A DNA stretch of 64,000 bases from an uncultured Chthonomonadaceae bacterium (GTDB lineage: Bacteria; Armatimonadota; Chthonomonadetes; Chthonomonadales; Chthonomonadaceae). How positions within the stretch are numbered: position 1 is the first letter of the stretch; each line of letters starts with the position of its first letter. The translations under genes were made by a program, and so were the position numbers. Positions 30,760-34,055 of this stretch are shown piece by piece. Under the pieces are notes generated by a model, which was given only the letters and a program-made list of their open reading frames with translations, was not told where the DNA came from and made no database searches. The DNA lies in assembly GCA_963817895.1 (NCBI GenBank), contig CAWFQB010000002.1, positions 96,001-160,000 of the forward strand. Reading direction: 5' to 3'.

Positions 30760-31413
30760 ATGTCTGAACAGGGTTTGGCGACATTATCGGCGCGGCCACG
30801 CGGGAATGGCAAGATTGCCGCGCGGCGGCAGATGGTCGAGCAGGTTTTACAGGAAGTGCGGGTTCGTTTGGAACGCGCGCCGGCAGTGGAACTGGAACAG
30901 GTTCTTGCCCGCTGGAAGCAGATGGCTTCCGAGCAAACGCGCGCGGCTTCCCATCGCGTCTCTGACGAAGACAAGCTGGTACTCGCGCTATCGGAGGGAC
31001 AAACGTATTCGCCCGATGAAGAGCTCCGGCTGGAAATCGAAGCGCAGCAGCGCGCGTTTGCCTGCCGTGAAACCCTGCTGCGGGGTTCGCTGACCGCGCC
31101 ACAGGTGGCGCGTCTGTTGGGTACGACCCGGCAAACACCGCATGACCGCGCGAAAAGCCTGACGCTTCTTGCCGTAGAAGATCGGGGCAGCCTGCGGTTC
31201 CCCTACTGGCAATTCGACGCGAACGGCCCCAATGGTACTGTGGCCGGCCTGCCTGCCGTTCTGAAAGCGCTGGACATTTCTCCGCTCGGCAAAGTCAGTT
31301 GGCTGACGCGCCCCAATCCCTCTCTGGAAGGGCGAACGCCACTGGAAGCACTGAAAGCAGGCGAAGCCGAGCGCGTTGTGGATCAGGCGCGAGCTGTGGG
31401 CGTGGGCGGCTGA
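30760..31413 (+). CDS. Antitoxin, HTH plus Xre/MbcA/ParS-like C-terminal domain
   Basis: LTAPQVARLLGTTRQ HTH, FPYWQF, SWLTRPNPSLEGRTPLEAL; one base before the RES gene. Confidence 0.8.
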   Translation: MSEQGLATLSARPRGNGKIAARRQMVEQVLQEVRVRLERAPAVELEQVLARWKQMASEQTRAASHRVSDEDKLVLALSEGQTYSPDEELRLEIEAQQRAFACRETLLRGSLTAPQVARLLGTTRQTPHDRAKSLTLLAVEDRGSLRFPYWQFDANGPNGTVAGLPAVLKALDISPLGKVSWLTRPNPSLEGRTPLEALKAGEAERVVDQARAVGVGG

Positions 31414-31414
31414 A

Positions 31415-32047
31415 ATGGTACTCATCGCGCAACCTCCGCCTGCCACGCCACCGCATCCTTTGTTCCACGTCATTCCCACCGACACCTATCTGGTACGGTT
31501 GTTCAATCCCACACGCTTCGGCACAACGGCCCTGACCTTCAACCACTACGGCCCGCTCAACCGCTTTGATCATCACCGTTTGCCTCCGCCCGGTACGGGA
31601 ACAGGGCAGATTGACCCTGACCGGGGCATCTATTACGCCGGATTCACGCTGTCGTGTTGCCTTGTCGAAGTGTTTGGCGACTATCGGCTGATTGACAATC
31701 CCGCTTTTCACGTAGCGCGTCTGCGCCTCATTCGCCCTCTGCGCCTGCTCAATCTATGTGATAACGGAGCCATGCGCGCCGGTTCCGTGACGGCTTTGTG
31801 CGGCACGGCGGATCGGAGTTTTTCGCAGCAGTGGTCGCGCTATTTTTATGACACGCCGGAGTATCAGCAGTGCGATGGCTTGCTCTTTCACGGCGCGCAC
31901 AACAATGAAAGCGCGGTCGCGCTTTACGAACGCGCTCAGGACGCGCTCGAATGTCCGCCCCAACAGGTGATTGCCCTCAACGCGCCAGCCCTGCGCCCCC
32001 GCCTACTCGACATCGCCGCGCGGCATGATATGGCTGTCCTGATTTAA
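31415..32047 (+). CDS. RES-domain toxin
   Basis: GPLNRFDHH, IYYAG, CLVEVFG, SQQWSRYFY, DGLLF, VALYERA. Confidence 0.85.
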   Translation: MVLIAQPPPATPPHPLFHVIPTDTYLVRLFNPTRFGTTALTFNHYGPLNRFDHHRLPPPGTGTGQIDPDRGIYYAGFTLSCCLVEVFGDYRLIDNPAFHVARLRLIRPLRLLNLCDNGAMRAGSVTALCGTADRSFSQQWSRYFYDTPEYQQCDGLLFHGAHNNESAVALYERAQDALECPPQQVIALNAPALRPRLLDIAARHDMAVLI

Positions 32048-32088
32048 CACCCGGACGTTTCCGCCGGAAGATTACTGTCAAAAACAAA

Positions 32089-32123
32089 CAGGCCGGACAA
32101 CAGAATTTCTGTTGTCCGGCCTG
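32089..32123 (-). terminator. Intrinsic terminator of the tRNA gene, possibly bidirectional
   Basis: CAGGCCGGACAACAGAA-T-TTCTGTTGTCCGGCCTG palindrome followed by TTTGTTTTT on the minus strand. Confidence 0.85.
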
Positions 32124-32138
32124 CGCGCAAGCGGACTA

Positions 32139-32480
32139 TGGGCCCAGCAGGAGTCGAACCTACAACCAACCAGTTATGCGTACCGCTGCGGCTTTCACCG
32201 CCCCTTTCGGGTTTGCAGTCTGGACTCTCTCTTCGCCCGTTTCGGAAAACGGAGCGCCTGCCGTCGAGTCTCTACACCTTCACGTATCCTGACAGGAAAC
32301 GCGCTTGGCTCGGGATTACCCTGCTGCAATTGCAGTGTAGGCTTCCCCGAATTTGACAGGTTACATCTGCCGACTTACGCCGACAGCGGCCCTACTTACG
32401 TTCCCCATGTCCAGACAATGCCTGCCTGAATTTAGACAAACCCGCTTGAGCCGGGCGCTCTGCCATTGAGCTATGGGCCC
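32139..32480 (-). tRNA. tRNA with CAT anticodon, most likely tRNA-Ile2; exons 32480-32449 and 32178-32139
   Basis: Spliced sequence GGGCCCA TA GCTC AATGGCA GAGC G CCCGG CT/CAT AA CTGGT TGGTT GTAGG TTCGACT CCTGC TGGGCCC A; G1-C72 pair, C4/C5, A73, no encoded CCA. Confidence 0.9.
32179..32448 (-). ncRNA. Group I self-splicing intron (IC3-like), 270 nt, no ORF
   Basis: 5' exon ends in U and intron ends in G; P AAATTCGGGGAAG, Q AATCCCGAGC, R GTAGAGACTCGACGG, S AAGAGAGAGTCC; P2 with GTAA loop; P3 CCTGTC/GGCAGG; P9 CCC-GAAA-GGG. Confidence 0.93.
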
Positions 32481-32499: not shown

Positions 32500-32528
32500 A
32501 GTGTACCTTTGCGAACGCGCCTTGTCAA
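32500..32528 (-). promoter_or_regulatory. Sigma70 promoter of the tRNA gene
   Basis: TTGACA-17 nt-TACACT on the minus strand, ending 19 nt before tRNA G1. Confidence 0.8.
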
Positions 32529-32702
32529 GAACAATCGCCGATTCCGTTTTGCAGGCTGCGTCACTTGACAACTTCGCCAAAGTTGTTTTATACTGGACTC
32601 GCCTCGCAATTATCTTCGCAGTAACCAACTTGTATCCGAAGTGTGCCGCTTCCGGTTTCTTCCCCGTTGAACGGAACCACGTTCCTTCCAGGAGATATGT
32701 TT

Positions 32703-34055
32703 ATGATCGTTTCTCGTTTCATCCATTGTTCCCGCCGCGCGTTGAGCCTGCTGCTTGTTTCCGCCTGCGCCATAACCGCCGCCCACGCCCAAACCCCATC
32801 CCCCTCAACCCTCAACTCTCAACCCTCAACGCCTTTACCAGCCACCAATCGCCAACCACCAACCGCCAACGAACTGCGCGGCATGTGGGTTATTTGCGAC
32901 AGTCTGGAGTCGCCCGCGTCCATTCATCAGGTGATTGTCACGGCGAAAAAGTACGGGCTGAACGCCCTTTTCGTGCAGGTGCGGTCACGGGGCGATGCCT
33001 GGTACAACTCGCCCTACGAACCCCGCGCCGAGGGCTTGAGCCATCAGCCGCGCGAATTCGATCCCCTGACGCAAATGGTGGCGGAGGGGCATAAAGAGGG
33101 GCTTGAAATCCACGCCTGGCTCAACACGTTTATCACATGGAGTAAATCGAAGCGGCCTCGCAGCTCGCAGCATGTGTGGAACGCGCACCCGGACTGGTTC
33201 TCTCACGACTGGCACGGCAGTCTTTCCACCGCCAATACGCAGGACTGCGAAGGCGTGTTTATGCAGCCGAGCAACCCGCAGGTACAGCAGCATCTGTTCA
33301 ACGTGTTTACGGATGTCGCGTCGCGCTATGATGTGGACGGAATTCACTTCGATTATGTGCGCTACCCGAACAGCACGTATGACTTTTCCCCGGTCACCGT
33401 CGCCCGCTTCAATGCGTATATGCAGCCGCAACTCGACGCGCCCCTCACGCAGAAACTCGACGCCCGCCTGAAACATGACCCCAAAGCCTACGTTCATGCG
33501 TTCGGCAAGGAGTGGGAAACATGGCGGCGGGCGCAGGTGACGGGACTGGTCACGCGCATCTCGCAGGCCGTGAAAGCCAATAAGCCCTGGATGCAGGTAT
33601 CCGCAGCCGTATTTCCCGACGGCAAGGACGCTTCCGAAGACCGGGGGCAGGACTGGATGCATTGGCTGCGCGACGGGGTACTGGACTCGGTTTCGCTCAT
33701 GGCTTACAACACAAGCACGGCGCGGATTGTGGAACAGACGAAACGCGCGGTTGCTATCGCGGGCGACCGTAAAGTATACACGGGCATCGGCGCATGGCGC
33801 TTATCCGCCCACAACGTCGCCGCCAAAATCGCCAGAGTGCGGCAGGCGGGCGCGTCCGGCGTGAACCTGTTCTCCTACGACGAGGTTCACAACCGCCGCG
33901 AGTATCTGAGTACCCTGTCGCGCGGCGTGTTCGCAAGCCGTTCCGCCCCCCCGCGCATGGGCTGGCTGCCGAGCCGAAGCGGAAGCGTCAATCGGGAGGG
34001 AGCCAACCCGGAGCAACCCAAAACGGATGCCGCGCAGCCTGATGTAAAACGTTAA
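32703..34055 (+). CDS. Glycoside hydrolase-like 10 (YddW/DigH-like) secreted protein
   Basis: ELRGMWV, NALFVQVRSRGDA, FDPL, IHAW, YDVDGIHFDYVRYP, QDW, MAY. Confidence 0.9.
   Translation: MIVSRFIHCSRRALSLLLVSACAITAAHAQTPSPSTLNSQPSTPLPATNRQPPTANELRGMWVICDSLESPASIHQVIVTAKKYGLNALFVQVRSRGDAWYNSPYEPRAEGLSHQPREFDPLTQMVAEGHKEGLEIHAWLNTFITWSKSKRPRSSQHVWNAHPDWFSHDWHGSLSTANTQDCEGVFMQPSNPQVQQHLFNVFTDVASRYDVDGIHFDYVRYPNSTYDFSPVTVARFNAYMQPQLDAPLTQKLDARLKHDPKAYVHAFGKEWETWRRAQVTGLVTRISQAVKANKPWMQVSAAVFPDGKDASEDRGQDWMHWLRDGVLDSVSLMAYNTSTARIVEQTKRAVAIAGDRKVYTGIGAWRLSAHNVAAKIARVRQAGASGVNLFSYDEVHNRREYLSTLSRGVFASRSAPPRMGWLPSRSGSVNREGANPEQPKTDAAQPDVKR

What the first reader, a model, noticed from the sequence alone, without database searches (positions are those of the whole stretch)
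32139..32480. Group I intron after U33 in an Ile2-like tRNA(CAU)
Seen: two tRNA halves separated by 270 nt with P/Q/R/S elements, a U at the end of the 5' exon, a terminal G, and a possible P1 (GGCUC/GGGUU) with a U33-G pair. The gene has its own promoter and terminator. Established: the classic bacterial tRNA introns lie after U34 in tRNA-Leu(UAA), after U33 in cyanobacterial tRNA-fMet, and after anticodon base 36 in Azoarcus tRNA-Ile(CAU) and alphaproteobacterial tRNA-Arg(CCU). Inference: this tRNA is not an initiator (G1-C72, no three consecutive G-C anticodon-stem pairs) and has Ile2-like C4/C5. An intron at the fMet-type position in an Ile2-like tRNA is a combination I do not recall. The splice site directly precedes C34, the lysidine target, so AUA decoding would depend on splicing. 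Standard tRNA callers may miss the gene.
Basis: partly seen in the sequence, partly recalled or inferred. Interest (0 to 1): 0.85.

Follow-up and report, generated by a model that had tools for sequence, protein, structure and literature searches.

The report
Self-splicing intron in tRNA-Ile2 gene
The gene for the tRNA that most likely reads the AUA isoleucine codon in this soil-type bacterium (phylum Armatimonadota) is split just before its anticodon by a 270-base self-splicing-type (group I) intron; it is real and hidden from standard tRNA finders, but it looks like one more example of an intron class already on record.

Summary
On the minus strand, window 32480..32139 is a 72-nt tRNA(CAU) gene split after U33 by a 270-nt group I intron. 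Rfam RF00028 scores it 53.1 bits against a cut-off of 50. Intron-less alleles in 17-18 family relatives, two with 100% identical exons, fix the junction.

The core (P2-P9, with the P3/P7 pseudoknot) is backed by covariation across 22 related introns: 95.9% of cells paired, 23 compensatory pairs.

The guide sequence is an invariant GGGC that lies after an L1 hairpin, and it gives U33·G in 22 of 22 introns.

The tRNA is not an initiator. It carries G3-C70, C4-G69 and C5-G68, the published tRNA-Ile2/TilS marks. The genome has tilS and uses AUA at 6.4 per 1000 codons. Whole-sequence similarity, however, does not separate Ile2 from Met.

The organism is a Chthonomonadaceae member. The intron is patchy in the family (7 of 25 genomes) and present in other Armatimonadota. 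It is closest to the classical tRNA-fMet intron at the same site. In some relatives it carries an antisense HNH homing-endonuclease gene.

Splicing is not shown; one metatranscriptome contig is unspliced.

Earlier notes of this scan found the same design on other DNA and say that Williams 2020 lists it as 'Ile2.2Ug'. I could not see that table.

Verdict: a new member of a known kind, of modest interest.

The parts
32500..32528 (-). Promoter-like site, TTGACA-17 nt-TACACT. It ends about 20 nt upstream of the tRNA 5' end.
   Evidence: 10 of 12 matches to the consensus. Shuffles give 0.4 such sites in the region. Consensus match only.
32449..32480 (-). 5' exon of tRNA(CAU): acceptor 5' strand GGGCCCA, D arm, anticodon-stem 5' strand, C32 and U33.
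   Evidence: Identical to the 5' half of the intron-less alleles L010 and L011.
32179..32448 (-). Group I intron, 270 nt, with no ORF of homing-endonuclease size. It ends in the terminal G (omega-G) at 32179.
   Evidence: Rfam RF00028 53.1 bits. Core helices are supported by covariation.
32448..32453 (-). P1 5' strand: exon C29-G30-G31-C32-U33 plus the first intron base.
   Evidence: Pairs with 32392..32387. G31-C, C32-G and U33·G hold in 22 of 22 aligned introns. The pairing is in the minimum-energy fold.
32393..32447 (-). L1 hairpin, an extension inside the P1 loop. In relatives this is where the antisense HNH gene sits.
   Evidence: fold. (place of the ORF in L059, L040, L037 and L041).
32387..32392 (-). 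Internal guide sequence GGGCCG (P1 3' strand).
   Evidence: GGGC is invariant in 22 of 22 sequences.
32367..32386 (-). P2 hairpin.
   Evidence: 8 pairs, 7 of them with compensatory changes (helix 2).
32355..32360 (-). P3 5' strand CCUGUC. It pairs with GGCAGG at 32262..32257.
   Evidence: 6 pairs, 5 with compensatory changes, 100% of cells paired (helix 3).
32310..32350 (-). P4 (UCGGGG/UCCCGA) enclosing P5.
   Evidence: Invariant and 100% paired (helices 4-5). Matches the Rfam consensus.
32276..32309 (-). P6 and P6a.
   Evidence: helices 6-7. P6a has 5 pairs with compensatory changes.
32223..32270 (-). P7 (GACUC at 32270..32266 with GAGUC at 32227..32223), enclosing the P3 3' strand (32262..32257) and P8 (32256..32234). 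P7 crosses P3 to form a pseudoknot.
   Evidence: helices 8-9: P7 100% paired; P8 has 3 pairs with compensatory changes.
32183..32218 (-). P9 domain (P9, P9a, P9b with GAAA loops).
   Evidence: helices 10-12.
32139..32178 (-). 3' exon: C34-A35-U36 anticodon, A37, A38, anticodon-stem 3' strand, variable loop, T arm, acceptor 3' strand and A73. No CCA is encoded.
   Evidence: Identical to the intron-less alleles L010 and L011.
32088..32124 (-). Terminator-like hairpin (17 pairs) followed by a T run.

Best explanation
Window 32480..32139 (-) is the organism's tRNA-Ile2(CAU) gene. It is interrupted between U33 and C34 by an ORF-less group I intron of the bacterial tRNA-intron type.

Inferred mechanism:
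1. The gene is transcribed from its own promoter.
2. The intron folds into the P3-P9 core.
3. The exon end C29-U33 pairs with the guide sequence GGGCCG, which lies after an L1 hairpin. This places U33 in a U·G wobble.
4. An external guanosine cuts after U33. The terminal G (32179) then takes the guanosine site, and the exons are joined to give the loop CUCAUAA.
5. Only after that can TilS turn C34 into lysidine and IleRS charge the tRNA for AUA codons.

The intron belongs to a lineage that targets the CAU anticodon loop. It is found here in Ile2 genes of Armatimonadota and is closest to the classical tRNA-fMet intron at the same site. In some relatives it is mobile through an antisense HNH homing endonuclease in L1. 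The copy in the window has lost, or never had, that gene.

Shown: the gene structure, the junction, the conserved fold and the distribution. Inferred: self-splicing, lysidine formation and the Ile identity.
For: Intron and junction:
- Rfam hit above the gathering score.
- The spliced form is a canonical 72-nt tRNA(CAT).
- Contiguous intron-less alleles occur in relatives, two of them with 0 mismatches.
- On 22 related pre-tRNAs the named structure has 95.9% of cells paired, against 34-50% when slid. 23 of 57 pairs have compensatory changes, and 0 of 500 shuffles reach any measure.
- U33·G holds in 22 of 22, and the first intron base pairs with the first G of GGGC in 21 of 22.
- P1 is present in the minimum-energy fold.

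Isotype:
- G3-C70, C4-G69, C5-G68, C11-G24, U12-A23, A37, A38 and A73 are read.
- Silva 2006 says G3/C70 mark tRNA-Ile(CAT), and that A11-T24/G12-C23 mark fMet.
- PMC12514573 gives C4:G69/C5:G68 as the dominant E. coli TilS elements, and G3:C70 (Ile2) against C3:G70 (Met) in Burkholderia.
- Of the genome's other CAU tRNAs, one is initiator-like and one has C3-G70, G4-C69, G5-C68 and C38. C38 conflicts with the 36-UAA-38 requirement for t6A (abstract of PMC13276492).
- The first four acceptor pairs equal those of the genome's own tRNA-Ile(GAU).
- tilS is present at 175 bits against a cut-off of 93.6.
- AUA is 6.4 per 1000 codons in 1911 long ORFs.

Lineage and mobility:
- 7 of 25 family genomes carry the intron and 18 do not.
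- 23 of 33 hits of a species-wide pattern scan are Ile2-type split genes, 4 are fMet-type and 6 are chance.
- In the tree the Ile2 group (86/85) lies next to the fMet group (88/77), and the genome's own tRNA-Leu intron is far away.
- The antisense ORFs match PHROG HNH families at E 1e-20 to 1e-22.

Transcription:
- A weak hint only. In a metatranscriptome, a 344-nt contig covers 32138..32480 at depth 50.
Against: - No splicing is shown. The RNA contigs laid are unspliced and no joint was seen. Contig ends at the tRNA borders could also come from assembly breaks where the flanks differ between strains; the flanks are not shared with relatives.
- The Rfam score is only 3 bits over the cut-off.
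- The P1 core is invariant, so it has no covariation.
- Isotype rests on a few discriminator positions. Whole-sequence identity does not separate the classes: this tRNA is 0.66-0.69 identical to E. coli Ile2-type tRNAs and 0.59 to E. coli tRNA-Met, but the genome's other elongator-type CAU tRNA gives 0.69-0.70 and 0.58.
- The best E. coli BLAST hits of both tRNAs are 'tRNA-Ile' with CAT.
- The anticodon stem has a C27×U43 mismatch and a G30·U40 pair.
- A tRNA-Ile(UAU) gene exists in an accessory tRNA array, so AUA reading may not hang on this gene alone.
- tRNAscan-SE isotype models were not available.
Confidence: 0.82

Rival explanations
1. The split gene is the elongator tRNA-Met (a 'Met.2Ug' case). 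The other elongator-type CAU tRNA (G000 C3:474051-474124) would then be the Ile2 species.
For: Whole-sequence identity and BLAST against E. coli do not separate the two. C3:474051 is 0.69-0.70 identical to E. coli Ile2-type tRNAs and its best hits are 'tRNA-Ile' with CAT. Silva 2006 says the Met/Ile distinction needs profiles more than single positions.
Against: The split tRNA has G3-C70. Silva 2006 gives this as a complete negative mark for Met and fMet. It also has C4-G69 and C5-G68. C3:474051 has C3-G70, G4-C69, G5-C68 and C38, which does not fit the U36-A37-A38 requirement for t6A (abstract).
Confidence: 0.1
2. The gene is a decaying relic. The intron no longer splices, and AUA is read by the tRNA-Ile(UAU) of the accessory tRNA array.
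For: A tRNA-Ile(TAT) gene lies in a 16-tRNA array at C4:227906-230044. Only unspliced RNA contigs were seen. No homing-endonuclease gene is left in this copy, and none was found in the genome.
Against: The window copy carries every column that is invariant across the 22 introns, because it is row 1 of the alignment, and all core helices pair. Its exons are identical to the intact alleles in G010 and G023. The promoter-like and terminator-like sites are intact. tilS is kept. No other Ile2-type gene was found among 67 tRNA calls. The same intron is kept in 3 of 3 genomes of the genus.
Confidence: 0.05
3. The resemblance to a group I intron is chance, and the two tRNA halves are unrelated fragments.
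For: The Rfam score is close to the threshold.
Against: Homologous split genes occur in at least 27 other species with compensatory changes in P2, P3, P6a, P8 and P9. Relatives have intron-less alleles that equal exon 1 plus exon 2.
Confidence: 0.01

Closest known systems
Cyanobacterial tRNA-fMet group I intron (class 'fMet.2Ug' in Williams 2020, bioRxiv 10.1101/2020.01.27.920355; Biniszkiewicz et al. 1994 as cited in PMC8450103)
   Same: Same insertion point, U33|C34 of a CUCAUAA loop, with the same U before the cut and G at the end. The same invariant guide sequence GGGC follows an L1 hairpin. It is the nearest intron group in my tree. Four such fMet introns (3 cyanobacterial or uncultured, 1 Chloroflexota) share the 14-base core word used in the scan.
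   Different: The host tRNA is the initiator (C1/U1 mismatch end, A11-U24, GGG/CCC stem). Here it is an elongator with Ile2 marks. By recall and earlier scan notes, the endonuclease known from that intron is the PD-(D/E)XK enzyme I-Ssp6803I on the sense strand. Relatives of this intron carry an antisense HNH gene. The fMet rows were picked by a shared word, so their closeness is partly by selection.
[quoted passage not shown]
   Same: The same host isotype (tRNA-Ile2) and the same general kind of small bacterial tRNA group I intron. By recall, its core sequence motifs around P3, P4, P6 and P7 are very similar.
   Different: It is inserted after U36 (position 5), not after U33 (position 2), so its exon guide pairing uses CAU. 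By recall, it lacks the long P9 domain and the L1 hairpin. No Azoarcus sequence was compared here.
Class 'Ile2.2Ug' said to be listed by Williams 2020
   Same: By its name it has the same isotype, the same position (2), the same U before the cut and the same G at the end.
   Different: I could not see it. The preprint's text names only the four classical classes and says 17 new ones exist. A full-text search for 'Ile2.2Ug' or 'Met.2Ug' found no paper. Which phyla it covers is unknown to me.
[quoted passage not shown]
   Same: Same kind of element and the same P9-domain layout. Rfam scores it 58 bits.
   Different: Different tRNA and site (U34|A35), and a short P1 loop. It is far from the CAU-site introns in the tree, with a branch of 1.45. 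Its region is AT-richer, at 48% G+C.

Membership tests
Group I intron (Rfam RF00028) | Covariance-model score at or above the curated gathering score | tested here: met
   53.1 bits against 50, E 1.2e-10, full model 1-253. The same hit appears in the whole-genome search.
Group I intron (Rfam RF00028) | Conserved core helices P3-P9, including the P3/P7 pseudoknot, kept by compensatory changes | tested here: met
   57 pairs, 95.9% of cells paired, 23 pairs with changes on both sides, 0 of 500 shuffles as high, slid controls 34-50%.
Group I intron (Rfam RF00028) | U at the end of the 5' exon in a U·G wobble within P1, and G as the last intron base | tested here: met
   U33·G108 in 22 of 22 and a terminal G in 22 of 22. 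The pairs never vary, so they are conserved but carry no covariation.
Group I intron (Rfam RF00028) | Guanosine-dependent self-splicing | not testable with these tools
   RNA contigs show only the unspliced form and no joints.
Subgroup IC3 (bacterial tRNA introns) | Assignment by the subgroup-specific peripheral layout, as in the group I intron database | not tested
   No subgroup models were at hand. Williams 2020 says the four classical tRNA classes are all IC3. Likeness to the Azoarcus and Anabaena sequences is recalled, not computed.
Bacterial tRNA-Ile2 (CAU, lysidine type) | CAT anticodon and elongator features: no 1-72 mismatch, and not A11-U24/G12-C23 | tested here: met
   G1-C72, C11-G24 and U12-A23. 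Rule from Silva 2006.
Bacterial tRNA-Ile2 (CAU, lysidine type) | Acceptor-stem discriminators against tRNA-Met: G3/C70, C4-G69, C5-G68 | tested here: met
   The acceptor stem is GGGCCCA/UGGGCCC. Rules from PMC1635315 and PMC12514573.
Bacterial tRNA-Ile2 (CAU, lysidine type) | Closer to Ile2 than to Met by whole-sequence profile or distance | tested here: inconclusive
   Identity is 0.66-0.69 to E. coli Ile2-type and 0.59 to E. coli Met, but the genome's other CAU elongator gives the same pattern. BLAST hits are weak, at E = 2. tRNAscan-SE and TFAM profiles were not available.
Bacterial tRNA-Ile2 (CAU, lysidine type) | TilS encoded in the genome | tested here: met
   TIGR02432 scores 175.4 bits against a cut-off of 93.6 at C3:34524-35075.
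Bacterial tRNA-Ile2 (CAU, lysidine type) | Lysidine at C34 and charging with isoleucine | not testable with these tools
   Needs tRNA mass spectrometry or sequencing.
Class 'Ile2.2Ug' (Williams 2020 nomenclature) | Ile2 isotype, intron after the 2nd anticodon-loop base, U before the cut, G at the end | tested here: met
   That the class is listed in the preprint rests on earlier scan notes, not on anything I could read.

The most novel reading that the evidence does not exclude
One intron lineage is aimed at the ten bases GGCUCAUAAC that tRNA-fMet and tRNA-Ile2 genes share. It hops between these two essential genes and across phyla (Cyanobacteriota, Chloroflexota, Armatimonadota, Acidobacteriota), driven by an antisense HNH endonuclease lodged in the P1 loop. 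In Armatimonadota the host has come to use it. Because the cut lies directly before C34, lysidine formation, and so all AUA reading, is gated by ribozyme folding. The end-trimmed but unspliced precursor seen at high depth in a metatranscriptome would then be a regulated pool.
Probability: 0.12. Interest if true: 0.55.

Novelty: new member of a known kind. Interest (0 to 1): 0.3.

Why it matters
For annotation, this genome and at least 20 other Armatimonadota species would be scored as lacking tRNA-Ile2 by standard tRNA finders, and so as unable to read AUA.

For biology, this is a clean natural series. Within one bacterial family there are intron-less alleles, ORF-less introns and introns that carry an endonuclease gene. 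The same intron lineage sits in two different essential tRNAs that share an anticodon loop. That makes it useful for studying the homing cycle and target choice of tRNA introns.

It does not open a new kind of system.

Tried and rejected
Rejected. It is not conserved in the closest relative and not in the minimum-energy fold.
- **RNAalifold pairing of GGGC with GUCC.** RNAalifold paired the invariant GGGC with GUCC of the P7 3' strand. I set this aside because P7 (GACUC/GAGUC) needs that strand, and RNAalifold cannot draw the P3/P7 pseudoknot. The hand-named structure was then tested.
- **Isotype by BLAST or identity to E. coli tRNAs.** Not discriminating.
- **TmcAL (PF05636) as a side mark for the Met tRNA.** Not found in the genome, which is 81% complete. 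This says nothing.
- **Synteny of the flanks with relatives.** No tblastn hit of the two neighbouring ORFs in 52 loci. Orthology therefore rests on the tRNA itself.
- **Pfam for the antisense ORF.** Only sub-threshold HNH hits of 13-15 bits. NCBIfam gave none. PDB sequences gave nothing meaningful. PHROGs gave the HNH call.
- **HNH homologue in the own genome.** Not found with this query.
- **RNA evidence for splicing.** No joints in 4 metatranscriptome runs. All were contigs, which cannot show rare or short forms. No silent control stretch could be laid because the cap is one call. The parts of the stretch without cover in those runs say nothing.
- **Own covariance model.** The alignment has 441 columns, over the 400-column limit, so none was built.
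- **Literature.** A search for 'Ile2.2Ug'/'Met.2Ug' found no paper. 'Group I intron' plus 'Armatimonad' found 1 paper, on inteins. 'Group I intron' plus 'Ile2' found 13 papers, of which 11 were listed, and none describes this site by its listing.
- **tRNAscan-SE 2.0 supplement.** It names Chthonomonas once and Fimbriimonas twice, in a version-comparison table only. The file was cut when stored.
Full report
**What is there**

The feature lies on the minus strand. Reading 32480 down to 32139 gives three parts:
- A 32-nt 5' half of a tRNA, GGGCCCA...CCCGGCU.
- A 270-nt insert, starting CAAGCGGG and ending GGUACG.
- A 40-nt 3' half, CAUAACUGG...UGGGCCCA.

Rfam's group I intron model matches 32445..32198 (-) over its full length. 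The score is 53.1 bits against a gathering score of 50, with E 1.2e-10. It is the only Rfam hit in the 64-kb window.

Default ARAGORN calls no tRNA in the window. Once the insert is removed in a script, it calls a 72-nt tRNA(CAT) with a normal cloverleaf.

With its intron option, ARAGORN places the cut at the archaeal/eukaryal position and so miscalls 'Leu(CAA)'. The cause is that 'CA' is repeated at both junctions, so cuts after U33, C34 or A35 all give CUCAUAA. Only the cut after U33 puts a U before the 5' cut and a G at the intron's end, as group I chemistry expects.

A promoter-like site (TTGACA-17-TACACT, 32528..32500) and a 17-bp terminator hairpin with a T run (32124..32088) flank the gene on its own strand. 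No CCA is encoded.

**Proof that the halves are one gene**

I searched 40 relatives with the 342-nt stretch. All 24 genomes of the same family matched, and none of the 16 from two other families of the order did.

Locating the exon halves in the fetched loci gave two groups:
- Intron-bearing alleles in six relatives: G002 (281-nt intron), G015 (260), G024 (258), G021 (246), G001 (641) and G011 (630).
- Contiguous 72-nt alleles in twelve loci, with five more genomes showing abutting exon matches.

Two intron-less alleles (G010 and G023) are identical to exon 1 plus exon 2 of the window.

So 7 of 25 family genomes, counting the window's, carry the intron. This includes 3 of 3 genomes in the window's genus.

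**Who the organism is**

One scan of 185,579 species genomes used a 14-base core word, a gap and GCATAA. It returned 33 loci, which I sorted as follows:
- 6 have no tRNA around them. These are chance matches inside coding-looking DNA.
- 4 are initiator-type split genes: two cyanobacteria, one uncultured and one Chloroflexota.
- 23 are split genes of the window's type.

The 23 break down as:
- Chthonomonadaceae/Chthonomonadales: 6.
- Capsulimonadaceae: 6.
- Armatimonadales: 5.
- Other Armatimonadota: 4.
- One 'Janthinobacterium lividum' MAG contig whose tRNA is of the Armatimonadota type, probably a binning error.
- One Pyrinomonadales (Acidobacteriota).

Several of these are the same contigs as the unnamed relatives, so the window comes from a Chthonomonadaceae bacterium. 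The genome is 7.48 Mb in 14 contigs, 57% G+C, and scored 81% complete.

In an even sample of 301 Armatimonadota genomes (at least 80% complete), 14 gave a BLAST match joining the intron to the 3' exon. These were 2 in the window's family, 10 of 22 in one other family and 2 in a third. This is a lower bound at BLAST sensitivity.

**Structure**

I aligned 22 pre-tRNAs with introns under about 400 nt: 18 of the window's type and 4 fMet-type. This was 22 of the 28 split genes in hand.

RNAalifold found P2, P3, P4, P5, P6/P6a, P8 and the P9 domain, but it cannot draw the P3/P7 pseudoknot.

I named a structure with P1, P2-P9 and P7 as a crossing helix, and counted it:
- 57 pairs, with 95.9% of cells standard pairs.
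- 34-50% paired when the 3' partners are slid by 1-3 columns.
- 23 pairs with changes on both sides.
- 0 of 500 shuffles reached any of the five measures.

P2 (7 of 8 pairs), P3 (5 of 6), P6a (5 of 6) and P8 (3 of 5) carry the compensatory changes. P4 and P7 are nearly invariant.

**The P1 helix**

In the closest relative (82% identical overall) that stretch reads GAUAGUUU. In other family members P2-like pairing starts there, and in the fMet-type introns there is no room for a guide sequence before the first hairpin.

Instead, a GGGC after that hairpin is invariant in 22 of 22 sequences. It pairs with G31-C32-U33 and the first intron base:
- G31-C in 22 of 22.
- C32-G in 22 of 22.
- U33·G in 22 of 22.
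- First intron base: U·G in 11, C-G in 10, unpaired in 1.

In the window the helix extends to C29-G and G30-C (guide sequence GGGCCG, 32392..32387). It is the outer helix of the minimum-energy fold of that region, at -23.4 kcal/mol with a z-score of only -1.67.

The first hairpin is therefore an extension inside the P1 loop (L1). Because the exon side is fixed by the tRNA, these pairs never vary. They are conserved but give no covariation.

**Which tRNA**

It is not an initiator. It has G1-C72, C11-G24 and U12-A23, and no run of three G-C pairs in the anticodon stem.

ARAGORN finds 67 tRNAs in the genome, three of them with CAT:
- C14:593210 has A11-U24, G12-C23 and GGG/CCC. It is initiator-like.
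- C3:474051 has the acceptor stem GGCGGAA and the loop UUCAUAC.
- C3:373662 is an odd 79-nt call.

Published discriminators point to Ile2:
- Silva et al. 2006 (PMC1635315, passages read) state that Met and fMet genes usually have C3-G70, and that G3, A3, C70 or T70 indicate tRNA-Ile(CAT). [quoted passage not shown]
- PMC12514573 (passages) reports C4:G69 and C5:G68 as the dominant E. coli TilS elements. It also reports G3:C70 (Ile2) against C3:G70 (Met) as a discriminator in Burkholderia.

The split tRNA has G3-C70, C4-G69, C5-G68, A37, A38 and A73. C3:474051 has C3-G70, G4-C69, G5-C68 and C38. C38 does not fit the 36-UAA-38 requirement for t6A named in the abstract of PMC13276492.

The first four acceptor pairs of the split tRNA equal those of the genome's own tRNA-Ile(GAU). 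The genome encodes TilS, at 175 bits against a cut-off of 93.6.

Evidence against, or neutral:
- Whole-sequence comparison does not help. Both elongator-type CAU tRNAs are nearer to E. coli Ile2-type tRNAs (0.66-0.70) than to E. coli tRNA-Met (0.58-0.59).
- Both hit 'tRNA-Ile' with a CAT anticodon in E. coli BLAST.
- Isotype-specific models were not available.

I put Ile2 at about 85%.

**How much depends on it**

AUA makes up 6.4 per 1000 codons, or 14% of Ile codons, in 1911 long ORFs. This is a crude ORF set.

A tRNA-Ile(UAU) gene exists, but it sits in a dense array of 16 atypical tRNA genes within 2.1 kb (C4:227906-230044). This looks like accessory or mobile DNA. It may or may not relieve the dependence on splicing.

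**Mobility and kinship**

The two long family introns (G001 and G011) each carry an ORF on the strand opposite to the tRNA, inside L1. So do a Capsulimonadaceae intron and the Pyrinomonadales intron.

Two of these proteins (123 and 122 aa) were scanned:
- PHROG HNH-endonuclease families match at E 1e-20 to 1e-22.
- Pfam HNH models match only below threshold.
- NCBIfam gives nothing.

The window's intron has no such ORF, and the protein was not found elsewhere in the genome.

In a maximum-likelihood tree of the intron cores (28 rows; L037 was dropped because the anchor motif was not found), four things stand out:
- The window groups with the two other genomes of its genus (99/99).
- The Armatimonadota introns form a group (86/85).
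- The four fMet introns form the neighbouring group (88/77).
- The genome's own tRNA-Leu(UAA) intron is very distant (branch 1.45).

This fits one intron lineage tied to the CAU anticodon loop, since GGCUCAUAAC is shared by both targets. It also fits vertical descent within the genus with loss of the endonuclease gene in the window's line. One caveat applies: all rows except the Leu intron were selected by a shared 14-base word, which favours close kin.

**Expression**

Word search found 20 runs holding part of the stretch, none with half of its words or more. I laid four metatranscriptome runs, all of them as contigs:
- One 344-nt contig (96% alike, depth 50) covers 32138..32480, which is the unspliced precursor to within two bases at each end.
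- A second run of the same study has a 307-nt contig inside it.
- No joint across the intron was seen.

This is a weak hint that a relative's allele is transcribed and end-trimmed while still unspliced. Three points limit it. Contigs cannot prove ends. DNA in the library was not excluded. Assembly breaks at the borders of a conserved element in variable flanks would look the same, and the flanks are indeed not shared with relatives. The result says nothing for or against splicing.

**What is known**

- Williams 2020 (bioRxiv 10.1101/2020.01.27.920355, whole text read) names four classical tRNA group I classes: Leu.3Ug, Arg.5Ug, fMet.2Ug and Ile2.5Ug.
- The tRNAscan-SE 2.0 paper (PMC8450103, passages) notes 36 genomes where fMet or Ile2 is missed because of group I introns. 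It names Acidovorax and Burkholderia for Ile2. The part of its supplement that I could search names Chthonomonas only in a version-comparison table.
- Full-text searches found no paper that names this site and isotype, and none that links group I introns with Armatimonadota apart from one intein paper.
- Earlier notes of this scan report the same design (Ile2-type tRNA, intron at 33/34) in a CPR bacterium and in several large phages. They also report an antisense HNH gene in L1 in 'over 70 species'. Three of them state that Williams 2020 lists the class as 'Ile2.2Ug' with a seed sequence. I could not test that statement. I weigh it as likely true, since 17 unnamed classes exist.

**Verdict**

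The main interpretation stands: a group I intron after U33 in an Ile2-type tRNA. The proposed P1 is corrected. The novelty claim probably falls.

What this window adds is a well-sampled example:
- It extends the design to the phylum Armatimonadota.
- Presence and absence vary within one family.
- A clear sister relation to the fMet-site intron.
- An antisense HNH gene in some copies.

It is a new member of a known kind, of modest interest.

Noticed in passing
G000 C14:652702-653020 (outside the window; locus L001): A second group I intron in the same genome. It sits in tRNA-Leu(UAA) at the classical U34|A35 site, is 238 nt long and scores 58 bits in Rfam. Its region is AT-richer (48% G+C) than the genome (57%).
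   Followed up: partly
G000 C4:227906-230044 (outside the window): A dense array of 16 tRNA genes in 2.1 kb, all on one strand and many with atypical sequences. It includes tRNA-Ile(UAU) and a second tRNA-Ile(GAU). It looks like an accessory or mobile tRNA array and could give a lysidine-independent way to read AUA.
   Followed up: partly
L040:1265-1633 (+), L041:1243-1608 (+); also L059 and L037: Relatives' introns carry an HNH endonuclease gene on the strand opposite to the tRNA, inside the L1 hairpin. It is found in Chthonomonadaceae, Capsulimonadaceae and one Acidobacteriota genome. An antisense homing-endonuclease gene in a bacterial tRNA intron is unusual. An earlier scan note reports the same layout.
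   Followed up: partly
L029 (record titled Janthinobacterium lividum MAG): This contig holds a split tRNA and intron of the Armatimonadota type. The tRNA is nearly identical to the Capsulimonadaceae/Armatimonadales alleles. The contig is probably mis-binned into a betaproteobacterial MAG.
   Followed up: no
L048 and L051 (Armatimonadales / Armatimonadota): These introns have about 200 extra bases inside the catalytic-core part (core 428 and 436 nt against about 210-250). The script found no ORF on the antisense strand like the HNH one. The place and nature of the insert were not worked out.
   Followed up: no
window 31376-32047 (+) and 32643-34055 (+): The neighbours of the tRNA gene are a RES-domain protein (toxin-type domain, 41.5 bits) upstream and a GHL10 glycosyl-hydrolase-like protein (146 bits) downstream, the latter with its own strong promoter-like site at 32565-32594. 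Neither neighbour is found beside the tRNA in relatives.
   Followed up: partly
window 32179 (run X14): One metatranscriptome contig follows the intron from 32368 down to exactly the 3' splice site (32179). It then runs on for 65 letters unlike the 3' exon. This suggests a related intron in a different exon context in another organism.
   Followed up: no
G000 C11:90528-90599 and C1:603139-603212: ARAGORN calls a tRNA with anticodon CUA (labelled Pyl, that is, an amber-suppressor-like tRNA) and a tRNA-Cys(ACA). Neither call was checked.
   Followed up: no
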